Notes under the pieces: model-generated | Seen by the model: only the letters and a program-made list of their open reading frames with translations | The model's database searches: none | Told to the model about the DNA's origin: nothing | From: a virus | Direction: 5' to 3' (one strand) | DNA: 36,052 bases | IMG/VR virus record: IMGVR_UViG_3300042199_000067 | Position numbers and translations under genes: made by a program | Shown here: piece after piece, positions 5,651 to 9,973 of the stretch | Layout of the letters: the number at the start of each line of letters is the position of its first letter | Numbering within the stretch: position 1 is the first letter of the stretch

Positions 5651-8600
5651 ATGGCTATACAGCAAAACAATTTTTATACAGATTTTGAAGATTATGGATT
5701 TGAAGATTATTTCAATGATCCATATGGTTATAACGCCGGCTATGCACAACCTGTAAATCCTGCTGATGTGTTCAGTCCAGGCAACTTTAATATGTATGAG
5801 GGTACTCAAAACAGTAGCAACGACACATACAATATTGGAAATGATGGTATACCAGAATATATTCCTGTAGATGTTGGTGGCGGACAATTCATTGCTCCAA
5901 CATACGATTATAGTTATAATGAACCTGTGTATACGCCTGAACCAGTTTATACTCCACCAGCGTATGTAGAACCTGAACCAGTTTATACGCCAGAACCTGT
6001 ATATACGCCTCCGGTATATGTTGCACCAGAACCAGTTTACACACCTCCCCCACCTCCCCCGGCACCGGTTGTAACTCCTCCACCTCCTCCTCCAGAACCA
6101 CCTGCATATGTTGCACCAGAACCTACGCCACAAGTTACAATCAATACACCACAAGCAACTCAGAATTATGGCCCCGTACCAGGCAGTAGCGTAGGTGGCG
6201 ATGGTGCCGGCCCTAATTATAACAATCTATACACAGGTGGTGGATTTGGTGGCGGTGGTGGATTTGGTGATTATGGTGGCGACAACACAACTTACACATA
6301 TGATGATGGAAGTACATTAACAGTTGATAATGGTGGTAATGTTGTTGATTATACAAACGCAACAGATTACACAGTTCCGGTTGTAGATTTAAGTCCTGTT
6401 GTTGGTACCGGCGGTGGTAAAGGTCCTGAAGATTATGGTCCTACACAGGCTGAAATTGATGCTGAGAATGCTAGAATTGCTGCCGAACAACAAGCCTACG
6501 AACAAGAAATGGCTCGTCAACAAGCCGCCTATGAAGCAGAGCAACAACGAATTGCTGAACAACAAGCCTACGAAGCAGAGCAAGCACGATTAGCACAAGA
6601 AGAGGCACAACGCCAAGAACAAGCACGAATCGCAGCCGAACAAGAGGCAGCAAGAGTAGCACAAGAACAAGCACGAATCGCAGCCGAACAAGAAGCGCAA
6701 AGACAAGCAGAATTAAAAGCACAACATGATGCTGAAGTTGCGGCAGAACAGGCACGACAGGCTGAACTACAAAGACAAGCAGAAGCCGCAGAGGCAGCAA
6801 GAGTAGCCGCAGAAGAAGCAGCCAGACAAGCCGCTGATGCTGCCGCAAGAACTGCCGCAGAAGAACAATTAAGATTAGCAAATGAAGAAAAGGCTAGAAT
6901 TGCAGCCGAACAAGAAGCCAATCGTATTGCGGCAGAACAGGCAGAGGCCGCAAGACAGGCTGAGGCGGCACGACAAGCAGAAGCAGCCAGAGTAGCGGCA
7001 GAGCAAGAAGCCGCTAGAATTGCGGCACAAAATGCAGCCAATGTTACAATAGATACTAGTGGCGCAGTAAGTCCTAGTGATTTAGCAAACACAATTAATA
7101 TTGGTAACACATATAGTACCAATGTTGCTGATTATACATCTTTTAATGCTGATGCAACTAAAGTTGGCAACACAGTATTGAATACTCCAGGTGCGTTTGG
7201 CGAGACTATTCCTAGTGATGTAATTGCAAACATACCTAACAATAGCACAGTTATACAAACTGGTAACAATACATTTACAGCAATTGATAATACTGGCAAC
7301 ATAACAGTATTAGATAGTACAGGTAATGTTATTAGTGGCGGTAATAGAGACTTTGATATTACTGTACAATATGTTGACCCAGTTACTGGTCAATTAGTTA
7401 TTAGCAGTACAGGTGGTAATGGTACTGGCGGTACAGGAACAGATACTACAGCAAACAATACTACTATTGGTGGTATTTTAGGTACTGGTACAAGTAGCGA
7501 AACAGCAAATACTACAGCATTATTTGGTCCAGGATCAAGTCATGGTCCTAATACATTTACAACAGATTATGGTATCATTGGCACTGGTAATTATGTTGCC
7601 AATACTACACCTACATTTGACTCAGCAAACAATGTAGTCATATTAAGTGATGGTACTATTGTTCCAATCGTAGATTTAACTACACCCACAAGTAACGCAA
7701 ATGTTACAACTGGTCCAGTAACGCCAACAACTGATACTGGTAATGTTAACATCACAGGACCAGTAACGCCAACAACTACGATTGATACTGGTAATGTATT
7801 GACCAATACTAATGTAGATACTACAACTGTAAACAGCAATAATACAACAACTACTACATTTGACGATGGTTCAACTGTAACCATTGATACAAACACTGGC
7901 AATATTGTAGGTGCTACAGATACTAGTGGTAATACGACTACAATTGGTAGCGTAAGTCCAACAGATTTAGCAAACGCTATGAATGCTACAAATGTCGCAA
8001 CAAGTGGAAACACAACTACTAGTGGCAATGTGACTACAACTGTATTTGACGATGGTAGTACATTGACTATTGATAACACTACAGGAAATATTACTGCGAC
8101 TGATAGCACAGGTGGAAATGTTACGACAACAACTACAGATGGTGGCACAACGACAACTACGGTTGGTGGCACAGATGTTGTAACTCCTGTCGTTCCAGAT
8201 ATAATCATAGGCTCTGAGGGCACTGGTACAGGTACTGGAACTGGAACAGGCGTAGATGTTGGAACCGGCACTGGCACAGGTACAGGTACAGGTACAGGTA
8301 CAGGTACAGGTACTGGCACAGGTACAGGTACAGGTACAGGCGTAGATGTTGGAACAGGTACAGGTACTGGAACTGGAACAGGCGTAGATGTTGGAACAGG
8401 TACTGGAACTGGTACAGGCGTAGATGTTGGAACAGGTACAGGTACTGGAACTGGAACAGGCGTAGATGTTGGAACTGGAACTGGTACAGGCGTAGATGCT
8501 GGTACTGGAACTGGTACAGGCGTAGATGCTGGTACTGGAACTGGTACAGGAACTGGTACTGGTAGTGGCACTGGAGTAGATGTTGGAACAGGAACTGGTA

Positions 8601-9973
8601 GTGGCACTGGAGTAGATGTTGGAACCGGAACTGGTACAGGATCAGCAGTAGTTGTTGGTCCCGTAAGCCCTGAAGATATTATTAGTGAAGGAACTGGAAG
8701 TGGAACAGGAACTGGAATTGGAAGTGGAACAGGAAGTGGTACAGGTACGGGAACTGGCACGGGTACAGGAACTGGTACAGGCAGCGGAACTGGCGTTGGA
8801 ACTGGAACTGGAACGGGCAGTGGAACCGGAAGTGGAAGTGGCACTGGAAGTGGTACTGGCACCGGAACGGGCAAAGGCACCTCTGAAGGTACAGGTACAG
8901 GGTCTGGGACAGGCACTGGAAGTGGTACTGGAAGTGGGACAGGAACGGGAACTGGCTCTGGAACGGGTTCTGGTACTGGTACAGGCACTGGGACGGGAAC
9001 TGGATCGGGTACAGGCTCAGGCACGGGAACGGGTACGGGAACGGGAAGTGGTTCAGGCAGTGGTACCGGTACTGGAACAGGCAAAGGTACGGGGACGGGA
9101 AGTGGTACAGGAACAGGAACAGGAACAGGAACAGGAACAGGAACAGGAACAGGAACAGGAACAGGAACAGGAACAGGAACAGGAACAGGAACAGGATCTG
9201 GCACAGGAACCGGCTCAGGAACCGGCTCAGGAACAGGAACTGGTAGTGGAACTGGTACAGGGACTGGAACGGGTACGGGGACAGGTACAGGCACCGGCAC
9301 TGGCACAGGTACTGGGACGGGGACAGGTACAGGCACCGGCACTGGCACAGGTACTGGGACGGGAACTGGGACTGGCACTGGTACCGGTATTGGAACGGGT
9401 ACTGGTACAGGAACAAAGATAAAACTACAGATACCTAAAGGATTGAATCCAGGCTTTATTGCGCCCACACCATTCTATAATACAACTAGACCTGAACAAG
9501 CAAAGTATTATTATGGTACACATGCATATCAACCAGGACCAACATTTGATCCTAATTTGTATAATTATGCGCCGGCTGCACCAAACACACCTTTTGGATC
9601 ACAGTATGTTGCACCTATGATGACTAGTCAACAAATCATGGACTTAATCATGGGCAAGCAATTACAACAACCTAATATTACACCAGCAACAAAAGTTATA
9701 CCAACTCCACCTGGTAGTAAGCCAATTGAACAACTAGGCATTTATGCTCCACAACTAAATCAAATACCTGCTACGCCTGTCAATCAAGTTACACCTACGA
9801 CACCAGGTCAGAGTGGTGTTACTAACGAACAATTCAAAGAAGTTAGTAAAGCATTGGGTAGTGATTGGTTGATTCGTCAACAAAAGGCAGCAGAGACTGG
9901 TGATTGGGCAACATATTATCAAATACAGGCACAAGTGTATGCGATATTAAATCCTAACATTAATGCTGGTTAA
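5651..9973 (+). CDS. 1440-aa mosaic fibrous protein: Pro-rich PVYTPE repeats, Gly-rich patch, about 200-aa Ala/Glu/Gln coiled coil, N/T-rich FDDGSTxTID modules, about 400-aa (Thr-Gly)/(Ser-Gly) tract, globular C-terminus
   Basis: A single uninterrupted 4.3-kb frame. GTG at 5648 and ATG at 5651 follow AAAAGG. The non-repetitive flanks fix the frame through the repeat tract, where all six frames are open. Confidence 0.85.
5921..6130 (+). repeat. Degenerate tandem coding repeats: (E)PVYTP(E/P) x about 6 plus two PPPPPP runs
   Basis: gaacc(t/a)gt(g/t)ta(t/c)ac(g/t)cc units are read directly. Protein: [67 protein letters not shown]. Confidence 0.9.
6440..7040 (+). repeat. Ala/Glu/Gln/Arg coiled-coil-coding low-complexity region with internal direct repeats ([15 protein letters not shown] x3)
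   Basis: caagaacaagcacgaatcgcagccgaacaaga occurs twice, 45 nt apart (about 6616 and about 6661). gcagaggccgcaagacag-type units repeat near 6940-6990. There are no helix breakers over about 200 aa. Confidence 0.85.
9110..9193 (+). repeat. Perfect (GGAACA)x14 tandem repeat inside the TG tract
   Basis: Counted unit by unit from 9110 to 9193. The next unit is ggatct. Confidence 0.95.
9277..9360 (+). repeat. Perfect 42-nt tandem duplication (2 copies) inside the TG tract
   Basis: ggggacaggtacaggcaccggcactggcacaggtactgggac at 9277-9318 is repeated exactly at 9319-9360. Confidence 0.95.

What the first reader, a model, noticed from the sequence alone, without database searches (positions are those of the whole stretch)
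5651..9973. 1440-aa mosaic fibrous protein combining five unrelated low-complexity architectures
One uninterrupted frame strings together the following segments:
- An aromatic/acidic N-terminus.
- (E)PVYTP(E/P) repeats plus two P6 runs.
- [11 protein letters not shown] patch.
- About 200 residues of Ala/Glu/Gln/Arg heptad-like helix ([15 protein letters not shown] x3), reminiscent of TolA domain II or M-protein-type rods.
- An N/T-rich region with three near-identical T-x-FDDGST(L/V)T(I/V)D-x-x-x-GN(I/V) modules, at nt about 6290, about 7852 and about 8036.
- About 400 residues of Thr-Gly/Ser-Gly.
- A 185-aa non-repetitive Pro/Tyr/Gln-rich C-terminus.

It is the largest gene in a 36-kb genome, taking 12 percent of coding capacity. 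It sits between fibre-like and ejection-type genes. A protein like this could be a very long flexible virion fibril, a host-envelope-spanning ejection component, or a glycosylation scaffold. I recognise no described phage protein with this layout.
Basis: partly seen in the sequence, partly recalled or inferred. Interest (0 to 1): 0.8.

Follow-up and report, generated by a model that had tools for sequence, protein, structure and literature searches.

The report
Hypervariable giant tether protein of podophages
This is a real 1440-residue, mostly low-complexity phage gene, and it belongs to an undescribed protein family found at one fixed place in an abundant group of uncultured aquatic short-tailed phages; only its tail end is conserved, and it most likely acts as a long flexible tether used when the phage delivers its DNA, though a surface fibril is not excluded.

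Summary
Window 5651-9973(+) is one uninterrupted 1440-codon gene, 12.0% of a circular genome of about 35.9 kb. An independent assembly reproduces it with one mismatch, and it is under purifying selection.

It is one version of an undescribed family of at least 264 clusters. These proteins run from 422 to 1714 aa. All 14 related loci examined place the gene between the tail-fibre gene and a conserved block of genes of about 236, 800 and 260 aa.

Only the last 80-190 residues are conserved. That domain has no Pfam, PHROG, PDB or cultured-phage match. A low-complexity spacer always lies just upstream, but its chemistry varies: Thr-Gly here, collagen triplets, Pro/Thr-rich or Asn-rich elsewhere. 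Spacer length varies in frame between strains, and the N-terminal modules are swapped between members.

Best reading (about 0.45): a virion-packaged ejection protein with a C-terminal docking handle, a thin tether including a 30-nm charged helix, and an envelope-contacting N-terminus. Main rival (about 0.27): an external fibril anchored by its C-terminus. A link to glycosylation found no support.

No experiment exists. I rate it a new variant of a known kind, interest about 0.6.

The parts
5651..9973 (+). Whole gene: 1440 codons plus stop. It is the member of the new family in this genome.
   Evidence: An independent assembly (L026) is identical except for 1 nt. dN/dS is below 1.
5651..5926 (+). 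aa 1-92: aromatic/acidic N-terminal module (Asn, Tyr, Gly, Asp, Pro, Phe; net charge -14).
   Evidence: The start MAI..NN.xTDFED is shared with L013. A similar acidic/aromatic stretch occurs in P0013.
5927..6145 (+). aa 93-165: Pro-rich segment with five PVYTP copies and two P6 runs.
   Evidence: EPVYT repeats also occur in L010.
6146..6445 (+). aa 166-265: conserved [22 protein letters not shown] motif, the [11 protein letters not shown] patch, and the first [19 protein letters not shown] hairpin module.
   Evidence: In other members (P0007 and its exact equivalent L015, and L016) a hydrophobic Gly-zipper region lies directly before the same [11 protein letters not shown] motif.
6446..7054 (+). 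aa 266-468: Ala/Glu/Gln/Arg charged helix, about 30 nm if fully helical. It resembles TolA domain II in composition.
   Evidence: It has no Pro or Gly. Opposite-charge pairs at i,i+3 number 26 against 9.5±2.6 expected. There is no 3.5-residue periodicity. L013, L002 and L020 have equivalent helices.
7055..8212 (+). aa 469-854: Thr/Asn/Gly-rich region with short conserved islands (AVSPSDL, [20 protein letters not shown], [24 protein letters not shown]) and two TFDDGSTxTID modules.
   Evidence: Alignment with L002 and L009. dN/dS is 0.31. No hit in the protein database search.
8213..9415 (+). aa 855-1255: Thr-Gly/Ser-Gly spacer with VD(V/A)G interruptions and a [11 protein letters not shown] linker.
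   Evidence: The equivalent spacer in relatives is collagen-like, Pro/Thr-rich, Asn-rich or GNxT-rich.
9107..9196 (+). Perfect (ACAGGA)n run inside the spacer. Its length varies in frame between samples.
   Evidence: L004 lacks 6 nt and L005 lacks 24 nt exactly here. Several contigs end inside the spacer.
9416..9970 (+). aa 1256-1440: the conserved C-terminal domain that defines the family. It has a core GLNPGFIxPxPFY..Q.QYYWG.H.YQPGPTF...YN...AP.TP(W/F)G.Q and a terminal 3-helix bundle.
   Evidence: The profile search found 264 clusters, always at the C-terminus. The AF2 model has pLDDT 79.6. There is no PDB fold match.
2191..4380 (+). Context: nozzle-like virion protein, 729 aa.
   Evidence: phrog_3287 at 2.6e-20. 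PDB 8zkk/8zkm 'nozzle gp16' at 6e-9.
4380..5624 (+). Context: tail-fibre-like protein, 414 aa.
   Evidence: Its N-terminus resembles that of the 787-aa fibre-type protein of MW202484.1. It is syntenic in all loci that extend far enough upstream.
10006..10716 (+). Context: highly conserved 236-aa helical protein that always follows the giant gene.
   Evidence: 2007 clusters; the best 120 are 68-100% identical. Synteny.
10726..13101 (+). Context: 791-aa protein. Its relatives carry an N-terminal SLT lytic transglycosylase domain.
13103..13870 (+). Context: 255-aa Gln/Ala-rich protein, the last gene of the low-complexity block.

Best explanation
**What it is**

The gene encodes this lineage's version of an undescribed, hypervariable virion protein. 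I read it as the first gene of the phage's DNA-ejection (internal virion, or 'pilot') gene block.

**Proposed mechanism**
1. The conserved C-terminal domain is the constant docking or assembly handle. It would bind a conserved partner such as the 236-aa protein, the portal or the nozzle.
2. The segment in front of it has free chemistry: Thr-Gly here, and collagen triplets, Pro/Thr-rich or Asn-rich elsewhere. Its likely requirement is to be long, thin, hydrophilic and flexible. That would let it be packaged, pass the narrow tail channel and act as a tether.
3. The 203-residue charged helix (about 30 nm) and the Pro-rich segment give a reach comparable to a periplasm.
4. The N-terminal module, which is swapped between members, contacts the host envelope. 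In about half of the family it is a hydrophobic Gly-zipper or transmembrane region. In this protein it is an aromatic/acidic and Gly/Phe-rich module.

**Shown**
- The gene is real and is under purifying selection.
- The family exists and occupies a fixed slot.
- The C-terminus is conserved while the spacer and N-terminus vary.
- Spacer length varies in frame between strains.
- The neighbouring gene family includes SLT-bearing members.

**Inferred**
- Packaging into the virion, ejection, the docking role of the C-terminus, and envelope spanning.
For: **Fixed position**
- All 14 related loci examined (L002, L007-L019 and the P0097 contig) place the gene directly before the roughly 236-aa and 800-aa genes. 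The roughly 260-aa and Dps genes follow where the contig extends far enough.
- The gene follows nozzle and fibre genes in every locus that extends upstream. In L019 a 118-aa gene is interposed between fibre and giant gene.

**Ejection-type neighbours**
- The 791-aa neighbour is homologous to the L007 and L008 proteins (E 2.5e-20 and 2.5e-9).
- The L008 protein has a Pfam SLT domain (1.4e-10) and hits phrog_342 'internal virion protein with endolysin domain' (1.8e-7) and phrog_19855 'virion structural protein' (3e-29).
- Low complexity is confined to this four-gene block. The fractions are 0.61, 0.26, 0.18 and 0.26, against 0-0.08 for every other protein tested.

**Membrane-type modules in the family**
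- 32 of 65 complete family members have a strongly hydrophobic 19-mer, often a Gly-zipper region of 100-150 residues.
- The Gly-zipper of P0007 weakly hits phrog_342 (E 0.003).

**Link to cultured phages**
- The N-terminal GDTxLAH...GTINPxTGLxEY module of members P0031, P0046 and P0013 recurs in Methylophilales phage Venkman gp46, which hits phrog_4287 'DNA ejection protein' at 5.7e-11.
- It also recurs in the DSL-LC04 ORF that lies just upstream of a phrog_4287 protein and two genes before a 'DNA transfer protein'.

**Other points**
- One member (L014) has a PT-HINT self-cleaving domain between the body and the spacer plus C-terminus. This fits a handle that is shed.
- 37 long members contain no Pfam enzymatic or other credible domain. 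This fits proteins that must pass a narrow channel.
- Published background: podophage ejection proteins are mosaic, refold, and must exit the portal channel partly unfolded (PMC8954989). Internal virion protein genes are unusually divergent and mosaic (PMC10386132).
Against: - There is no virion or infection data for any member.
- The window protein has no hydrophobic segment (maximum KD19 1.25) and a net charge of -88. The membrane-insertion argument therefore rests on other members.
- No sequence or profile similarity to T7 gp14/15/16, the P22 ejection proteins or any PHROG was found.
- The link between the 236-aa neighbour and phrog_4287 is not significant (E 0.12-0.28).
- The gene lies exactly at the border between the fibre module and the ejection block, so position alone cannot decide.
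- Collagen-type repeats (L009, Pfam Collagen 1e-29), Asn-rich periodic repeats and strain-level hypervariability are also what an external fibre or adhesin would show.
- A very acidic 1440-residue chain packed next to DNA is not obviously favourable.
Confidence: 0.45

Rival explanations
1. It is an external virion fibril or adhesin. The conserved C-terminal domain anchors the protein to the tail or neck, or nucleates a trimer. The helix, Thr/Asn-rich region and spacer form a long flexible filament. The variable N-terminal end contacts host surface polymers. This resembles filamentous-phage pIII, which has a C-terminal anchor and Gly-rich linkers, and collagen-like phage fibres.
For: - The gene immediately follows the nozzle and fibre genes.
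- The orthologous spacer in L009 and L011 is a true Gly-X-Y collagen repeat (Pfam Collagen 1e-29), which implies a trimeric rod.
- L012, L013 and P0013 have periodic Asn/Ile/Ser repeats, as in fibre stalks.
- The gene is hypervariable while its neighbour is 70% or more conserved. That is typical of host-range determinants.
- The composition is acidic and hydrophilic, with no transmembrane segment.
Against: - The polarity is the reverse of known tail fibres, which have a conserved N-terminal anchor and a variable C-terminus.
- About half of the family carries hydrophobic Gly-zipper or transmembrane regions of 100-150 residues. These would be odd on a soluble external fibre.
- No receptor-binding or fibre domain was found in 37 long members.
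- A PT-HINT cleavage domain in L014 would cut the fibre off its anchor.
- The shared N-terminal module maps to ejection-protein blocks in cultured phages.
- The compositional kinship is with the downstream block, not with the fibre or nozzle.
Confidence: 0.27
2. It is a glycosylation scaffold. The Thr-rich spacer would be O-glycosylated by phage-encoded enzymes to give a mucin-like coat. This reading can be combined with the fibril reading.
For: - The genome carries a nucleotide-sugar epimerase/dehydratase (346-1377; Pfam Epimerase 4e-44), an adjacent 260-aa ORF, and a DUF6734 gene (20132-20986) inside the structural region.
- By eye, the 260-aa ORF has a fucosyltransferase-like HLRGTD motif. 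This rests on my own reading, not on a tool result.
- The spacer is 35% Thr and 7% Ser.
Against: - The 260-aa ORF has no family hit.
- Neither it nor DUF6734 has a close relative in IMG/VR.
- The sister lineage has the same Thr-Gly spacer but carries 80-aa and 211-aa genes after the terminase instead of DUF6734.
- L012 and L013 lack the epimerase and the 260-aa gene at that position.
- Most family spacers are Pro/Thr-rich, Asn-rich or collagen-like, so Thr is not a family requirement.
Confidence: 0.05
3. It is a non-virion protein made in the infected cell. Examples would be an envelope-associated factor for superinfection exclusion, lysis timing or host takeover.
For: - Many members have transmembrane-like regions, long periplasm-spanner-like linkers and a TolA-like helix.
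- There is no proof of virion association.
Against: - The gene is embedded, co-oriented and tightly spaced (26-nt and 32-nt gaps, no terminator) within the structural gene string in every locus.
- No signal peptide or transmembrane segment is seen in the window protein.
- The gene costs 12% of a 36-kb genome and is retained in every locus examined from this phage group. The more distant MW202484.1 lacks it.
Confidence: 0.1
4. It is an artefact: a chimeric or collapsed assembly, or a non-coding repeat tract that happens to be open.
For: - Many assemblies break inside the spacer.
- Gene callers sometimes report only a 176-aa TTG-start C-terminal fragment (P0001).
- Other frames are also open across the repeat.
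Against: - A second sample's assembly is identical over 20.7 kb apart from 1 nt.
- All observed length variants are multiples of 6 nt.
- dN/dS is 0.14-0.31 on both sides of the repeat.
- Homologues of 900-1700 aa with the same C-terminus were called independently in many metagenomes.
Confidence: 0.02

Closest known systems
Podophage ejection / internal virion proteins (T7 gp14-gp15-gp16; P22 gp7-gp20-gp16; phrog_4287 'DNA ejection protein'; phrog_342)
   Same: - It is encoded in the structural string next to a gene family whose members carry an SLT lytic domain.
- It is mosaic and fast-evolving, with no globular enzymatic body.
- Many family members have hydrophobic segments.
- Some share an N-terminal module with Venkman gp46, which hits phrog_4287.
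   Different: - There is no detectable sequence or fold similarity.
- The conserved part is a new C-terminal domain.
- 61% of this protein is low complexity.
- This member has no transmembrane segment and is strongly acidic.
- Length varies four-fold within one phage group.
TolA domain II / TonB-type periplasm-spanning linkers
   Same: - A helix of about 200 residues rich in Ala/Glu/Gln/Arg, without Pro or Gly, about 30 nm long if helical.
- Pro-rich rigid segments.
- In other members, an N-terminal membrane region, then a spacer, then a C-terminal domain.
   Different: - This protein has no N-terminal membrane anchor.
- It has no TolA-III or TonB C-terminal domain.
- It is phage-encoded and lies among virion genes.
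Filamentous-phage pIII (g3p)
   Same: A conserved C-terminal part that holds the protein in the particle, Gly-rich low-complexity linkers, and N-terminal host-contact domains.
   Different: The sequence, the virion type and the scale are all unrelated. The comparison rests on my own knowledge and is an analogy only.
Collagen-like phage fibre proteins
   Same: The orthologous spacer in L009 and L011 is a Pfam Collagen repeat. These are long thin rods encoded next to fibre genes.
   Different: The window's spacer is a Thr-Gly dipeptide repeat, not Gly-X-Y. The anchor polarity is reversed.
Tape measure proteins of long-tailed phages
   Same: Gly-zipper hydrophobic segments, tandem repeats with in-frame length variation, and passage through the tail. 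The DSL-LC04 relative of the N-terminal module is annotated as a tape measure.
   Different: This is a podophage gene set (portal, nozzle, fibre) with no tail-tube or chaperone genes recognised. Length varies far too much within one phage group to act as a ruler.

Membership tests
New family defined here (C-terminal LNPGF...PWGLQ domain proteins) | C-terminal core GLNPG(F/W/Y)I...Y.TT.P.QSQ(Y/F)YWG.H.YQ.GPTF...YN...AP.TP(W/F)G.Q within the last 80-190 residues | tested here: met
   Alignments. The profile search found 264 clusters, always with the domain at the C-terminus.
New family defined here (C-terminal LNPGF...PWGLQ domain proteins) | Gene lies directly before the conserved 236-aa gene, and after the fibre gene where the locus extends upstream | tested here: met
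New family defined here (C-terminal LNPGF...PWGLQ domain proteins) | Low-complexity spacer immediately upstream of the C-terminal domain | tested here: met
   Spacer entropy is 1.38 bits here (Gly 50%, Thr 40%). All other members have Pro/Thr/Val-, Gly/Thr/Asn- or Gly/Ala/Ser-dominated spacers.
T7-type ejectosome / internal virion proteins | Encoded together with other internal virion proteins, one of which carries a peptidoglycan hydrolase | tested here: met
   Relatives of the 791-aa neighbour carry SLT. Synteny.
T7-type ejectosome / internal virion proteins | Sequence or profile similarity to gp14, gp15, gp16 or P22 ejection-protein families | tested here: not met
   No Pfam or PHROG hit for the protein or its parts. 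No PDB sequence or fold hit for the C-terminal domain.
T7-type ejectosome / internal virion proteins | Predicted membrane-spanning helices (gp14-like: 4-5; gp16: 2; PMC8954989) | tested here: not met
   Maximum 19-residue Kyte-Doolittle mean is 1.25 in the window protein. It is 1.6 or more in 32 of 65 other complete members.
T7-type ejectosome / internal virion proteins | Packaged in the capsid and ejected into the host envelope | not testable with these tools
   No cultured member was found in 50,697 phage records.
TolA / TonB periplasm-spanning proteins | N-terminal membrane anchor | tested here: not met
TolA / TonB periplasm-spanning proteins | Long charged helix or Pro-rich spacer | tested here: met
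   aa 266-468 has no Pro or Gly and enriched i,i+3 and i,i+4 opposite-charge pairs. aa 93-165 is 41% Pro.
TolA / TonB periplasm-spanning proteins | TolA domain III or TonB C-terminal domain | tested here: not met
   No Pfam hit. No structural match for the C-terminal model.
Phage tail fibre / collagen-like fibre | Conserved N-terminal virion-attachment part with a variable distal C-terminus | tested here: not met
   The polarity is reversed: only the C-terminus is conserved.
Phage tail fibre / collagen-like fibre | Gly-X-Y collagen repeats | tested here: not met
   No Collagen hit for the window protein; its repeat unit is a dipeptide. The feature is met in the orthologue L009.
Tape measure protein | Encoded in a long-tail module (tube, chaperones, distal tail proteins) | tested here: not met
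   The gene set is that of a podophage: portal, major head protein and nozzle-like protein, with no tube or tape-measure families.

The most novel reading that the evidence does not exclude
These phages use a previously unrecognised design of delivery protein. A small conserved C-terminal handle loads the protein into the particle. A spacer follows whose only requirement is to be long, thin and flexible, so it can be built from Thr-Gly, collagen triplets, Pro/Thr or Asn repeats, and it changes length by repeat slippage. At the front are freely exchangeable N-terminal modules that meet the host envelope. Spacer length and N-terminal module would then be tuned to the envelope of each host strain. 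That would make this gene, rather than the fibre, the fastest-evolving host-adaptation locus of an abundant aquatic phage group.
Probability: 0.25. Interest if true: 0.8.

Novelty: new variant of a known kind. Interest (0 to 1): 0.6.

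Why it matters
**Abundance and neglect.** The phage group is abundant. The conserved 236-aa neighbour alone has 2007 clusters across JGI, ENA, Logan and Tara data. 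Even so, this gene family has no Pfam or PHROG entry, no solved or matching structure and no cultured representative.

**A clean natural experiment.** One short conserved domain is held constant. Upstream of it lies a spacer that tolerates at least five unrelated repeat chemistries, and N-terminal modules that are swapped. This bears on what a disordered or fibrous linker in a virion protein actually has to do.

**If it is an ejection protein.** It would extend the known range of how short-tailed phages bridge the cell envelope.

**If it is a surface fibril.** It would be a fibre with reversed anchor polarity.

**Practical consequence.** The repeats break assemblies and mislead gene callers, so this gene is systematically under-annotated in metagenomic phage genomes.

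Tried and rejected
**Searches that found nothing**
- Pfam and PHROGs on the whole protein and its parts gave nothing.
- tblastn against 50,697 phage records gave no match for the whole protein, the C-terminus or P0007. The 236-aa gene matched only MW202484.1.
- The protein-database search with the middle region returned no hit.
- Foldseek of the C-terminal model against the PDB gave nothing below E = 3. Against BFVD it found only an uncharacterised homologue.
- A scan of 185,579 species genomes with a degenerate pattern gave 0 hits, so no prophage copies and no host clue. The same pattern finds 8 of about 16 known family loci.
- PHROGs on ten small ORFs of the window gave nothing.
- Literature searches for PDB entry 8ZKK or phage VP1 gave nothing usable.

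**Structure predictions that failed**
- AF2 of the 236-aa neighbour gave pLDDT 39.9 and an all-helical model. It is unusable, so no fold search was run on it.

**Links tested and not supported**
- hhalign of the 236-aa profile against Venkman gp46 and the DSL-LC04 294-aa 'DNA ejection proteins' gave E 0.24 and 0.12, which is not significant.
- No co-occurrence was found between the sugar genes and Thr-rich spacers.

**Correction of my own earlier inference**
- I first inferred that pipelines never called the full ORF. That was wrong: JGI called it as a 1440-aa gene on L026.

Full report
**1. The observation**

Window 5651-9973(+) is a single open frame of 1440 codons plus a stop. An AAGG ribosome-binding-like motif lies 9-12 nt upstream, as it does for the next gene. 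The window has a 127-nt terminal direct repeat, so it is a circular genome of about 35.9 kb. The gene takes 12.0% of it.

- an aromatic/acidic N-terminus (aa 1-92);
- five PVYTP copies and two Pro6 runs (aa 93-165);
- a [11 protein letters not shown] patch;
- a 203-residue Ala/Glu/Gln/Arg segment (aa 266-468);
- a Thr/Asn/Gly-rich region (aa 469-854);
- a 401-residue Thr-Gly/Ser-Gly tract (aa 855-1255; 89% Gly+Thr+Ser);
- a non-repetitive 185-residue C-terminus.

Two details need correcting:
- The first of the three (Y/F)DDGST modules (aa 213) lies before the helix, not in the N/T region.
- The helix has no 3.5-residue hydrophobic periodicity. It has no Pro or Gly, and opposite charges at i,i+3 and i,i+4 are strongly enriched: 26 against 9.5±2.6, and 18 against 9.4±2.6. 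It is a charged helix like TolA domain II, about 30 nm long if fully helical.

**2. Real gene or artefact**

- An independent assembly from another sample (L026, a 36,094-bp contig) matches the window over 20,711 nt with one mismatch and identical repeat lengths. JGI called a 1440-aa gene there.
- Against the 78%-identical relative L002, dN/dS is 0.14 for the C-terminus and 0.31 for the middle region. The neighbouring gene gives 0.09.
- The Thr-Gly tract uses all four Thr and all four Gly codons, so the repeat is kept at the protein level.
- Two other assemblies differ by -6 and -24 nt exactly at a perfect (ACAGGA)n run at about 9107-9196.
- In the sister lineage, which encodes an identical 236-aa protein, the spacer is 313, 305 or 293 residues. 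Length therefore varies in frame between strains.
- Many contigs end inside the spacer. On such contigs gene callers report only a 176-aa TTG-start fragment.
- Other frames are open across the repeat. They are by-products of the repeat.

**3. Genomic setting**

The genome is that of a short-tailed phage. It has a terminase (18197-19807), a portal (21028-23310) and a major head protein (24894-26066). The portal is distantly related to the portals of LUZ24/PaP3-type and SU10-type phages.

Upstream of the gene lie a nozzle-like 729-aa protein (phrog_3287; PDB 8zkk 'nozzle gp16', E 6e-9) and a 414-aa fibre-like protein.

Downstream lie proteins of 236, 791 and 255 aa. They are Gln/Ala/Gly/Pro-rich and predicted to be helical, and they have no family hit. 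The 791-aa protein is homologous to proteins in L007 and L008 (E 2.5e-20 and 2.5e-9). The L008 protein has an N-terminal SLT lytic transglycosylase domain (Pfam 1.4e-10). It also hits 'virion structural protein' and 'internal virion protein with endolysin domain' PHROGs. That is the signature of an ejection-protein block.

Low complexity is confined to this four-gene block. The fractions are 0.61, 0.26, 0.18 and 0.26, against 0-0.08 for all other proteins tested.

**4. The family**

A profile of the C-terminal domain finds 264 representative clusters at E≤1e-3, 177 of them at E≤1e-10, among 1.84 billion proteins. The match is always at the C-terminus. Apparently complete proteins range from 422 to 1714 aa.

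In all 14 related loci examined, the family gene directly precedes the roughly 236-aa and 800-aa genes. The roughly 260-aa gene and a Dps/ferritin gene follow where the contig extends far enough. Nozzle and fibre genes lie upstream wherever the locus reaches that far.

The 236-aa neighbour has 2007 clusters, and the best 120 are 68-100% identical to the window's copy. The phage group is therefore abundant, and that neighbour is strongly conserved. The giant gene is conserved only in its last 80-190 residues.

The segment just before the conserved domain is always low complexity, but its chemistry differs:

| Spacer type | Loci or proteins |
|---|---|
| Thr-Gly | window, L002 |
| Gly-Ala-Ser collagen triplets (Pfam Collagen 1e-29) | L009, L011 |
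| Asn/Ile/Ser periodic repeats | L012, L013, P0013 |
| Pro/Thr/Val-rich (the majority of members) | L007, L017, P0031, P0047, P0097 and others |
| GNxT-type | P0046, P0116, L018 |
| Thr-Glu / EPVYT | L010 |

N-terminal and central modules are shuffled:
- L013 has the window's N-terminus and a charged helix.
- L009 and L002 share the window's middle region.
- About half of the complete members (32 of 65) instead carry a hydrophobic Gly-zipper or transmembrane region, followed by the same YxYDDGST hairpins.
- L014 carries a PT-HINT self-cleaving domain (E 3e-5, just under Pfam's cut-off).

No Pfam enzymatic or other credible domain occurs in 37 long members.

A short motif, G(P/A)V(S/T/A/V/N)P, recurs at module borders and at the extreme C-terminus. 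It occurs 97 times against 5.3±2.1 in composition-matched shuffles. I cannot explain it.

**5. The conserved domain**

With a 38-sequence alignment, AF2 gives mean pLDDT 79.6 and pTM 0.48. The model has three parts:
- an irregular Pro/Tyr/Gln-rich core of about 110 residues with little regular secondary structure;
- a disordered link;
- a confident three-helix bundle (residues 140-181), which is present only in the 'long' class of the family.

Foldseek finds no PDB match below E = 3. In BFVD it finds only an uncharacterised homologue from an uncultured phage. The domain is new.

**6. What it most likely does**

The only part that can make a conserved contact with conserved virion partners is the C-terminal domain. 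I therefore take it as the docking or assembly handle.

The free chemistry and variable length of the spacer indicate a physical requirement (long, thin, flexible, hydrophilic) rather than a specific fold.

These points together lean towards a packaged ejection protein that acts as a tether or envelope-spanning element:
- the position at the head of the SLT-containing block;
- the shared low-complexity character of that block;
- the membrane-type modules in half of the family;
- the PT-HINT domain;
- the lack of globular domains.

Independent support comes from cultured phages. The N-terminal GDTxLAH...GTINPxTGLxEY module of members P0031, P0046 and P0013 occurs in Methylophilales phage Venkman gp46, which hits phrog_4287 'DNA ejection protein' at 5.7e-11. 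It also occurs in a DSL-LC04 ORF that lies just upstream of a phrog_4287 protein and two genes before a 'DNA transfer protein'. Venkman's neighbouring 'stabilization protein' belongs to the same PHROG as the window's nozzle-like protein.

Published work describes ejection proteins as mosaic and refolding, and as needing to pass the portal channel partly unfolded (PMC8954989). It also describes their genes as unusually divergent and mosaic (PMC10386132).

**7. Why confidence is only about 0.45**

- The window protein itself has no hydrophobic segment and a net charge of -88.
- It lacks the GDTxLAH module.
- It has no similarity to any known ejection protein.
- The link between the 236-aa neighbour and phrog_4287 is not significant.
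- The gene lies exactly at the fibre/ejection border.
- Collagen triplets, Asn-rich periodic repeats and strain-level hypervariability are equally what an external fibril or adhesin anchored by its C-terminus would show.

That rival stands at about 0.27.

A glycosylation scaffold is unsupported. The sugar-related genes of this genome (epimerase 346-1377, the 260-aa ORF, DUF6734) are absent from the sister lineage, which has the same Thr-Gly spacer, and from other relatives. A non-virion role (about 0.10) and an artefact (about 0.02) are less likely still.

**8. Novelty**

No Pfam or PHROG family, solved structure or cultured-phage protein matches the family or its defining domain. No copy was found in 185,579 species genomes with a pattern that detects half of the known loci.

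The broad kind, an accessory virion protein of a short-tailed phage, is known. The design of a conserved C-terminal handle, a spacer of free composition and swappable front modules is not described. I rate it a new variant of a known kind, with interest about 0.6. It is surprising to a specialist and directly testable, but so far it has no experimental anchor.

Noticed in passing
window 346-1377, 1374-2156, 20132-20986: Three sugar-related or possibly sugar-related genes are inserted in the structural region: an NAD-dependent epimerase/dehydratase, an adjacent 260-aa ORF with no family hit, and a DUF6734 gene between terminase and portal. By eye the 260-aa ORF has a fucosyltransferase-like HLRGTD motif. 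These genes are specific to this lineage; relatives lack them.
   Followed up: partly
window 13880-14311, and the same position in L002, L009-L020 and the P0097 contig: A 143-aa Dps/ferritin-like gene (Pfam Ferritin 2.5e-15) follows the four-gene low-complexity block in every related locus that extends far enough. Whether it is a virion or cargo protein is unknown.
   Followed up: no
window protein aa 471, 688, 703, 1003; 54 of 78 family proteins: The short motif G(P/A)V(S/T/A/V/N)P, often followed by xD(I/L), recurs at module borders and as the extreme C-terminus GPVAPR. It occurs 97 times against 5.3±2.1 in shuffles. It could be a hinge, a cleavage site or a recombination joint; this is unexplained.
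   Followed up: partly
L014 7460-10579 (aa 659-773): One family member carries a PT-HINT (pretoxin Hint) self-cleaving domain between its body and the Pro-rich spacer plus C-terminal domain (E 3e-5; 24.7 bits against a cut-off of 27.7).
   Followed up: partly
L009 101-3679; L011 2-1009: The orthologous spacer is a Gly-Ala-Ser collagen-type triplet repeat (Pfam Collagen 1e-29 for L009; L011 read by eye only). It is broken by the same VIGPVSPDDII linker as in the window.
   Followed up: partly
L033 8968-9876 (Venkman gp46); L034 6539-8818 (DSL-LC04 'tape measure'): An N-terminal module GDTxLAH...GGxGTINPxTGLxEY is shared between some family members and ejection-block proteins of cultured phages. 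The DSL-LC04 ORF annotated as a tape measure looks mis-annotated: its gene neighbourhood resembles a short-tailed-phage ejection block rather than a long-tail module.
   Followed up: partly
L001 (MW202484.1) 20562-20864: In the closest GenBank phage, the slot between the fibre and the 236-aa homologue holds only a 100-aa Gln/Gly/Pro/Lys-rich ORF. It has no LNPGF domain.
   Followed up: partly
window 7591-9468 (-), 8685-9422 (+, other frame), 5408-6154 (-), 6568-7122 (-): Long spurious ORFs overlap the gene on the other strand or in other frames because of the repeats. On contigs that start inside the repeat, JGI called an out-of-frame 106-aa ORF plus a 176-aa TTG-start C-terminal fragment.
   Followed up: yes
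window 33246-34100 and 34097-35866: Two adjacent ORFs both hit the DNA primase family phrog_1156, covering different parts of the profile. This is a split or two-part primase(-helicase).
   Followed up: no
window 27945-31415: The second-largest gene (1156 aa) follows the head and adaptor genes. It has no Pfam, PHROG or PDB match and only a short N-terminal match in L018.
   Followed up: no
window 1-127 and 35926-36052: An exact 127-nt terminal direct repeat, as expected for a circular genome cut open by a k=127 assembler. It lies in an A-rich intergenic region.
   Followed up: yes
window 14391-14879 (-): This is the only sizeable gene on the minus strand (162 aa). It is conserved in related loci as a minus-strand gene of 160-194 aa and has no family hit.
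   Followed up: no
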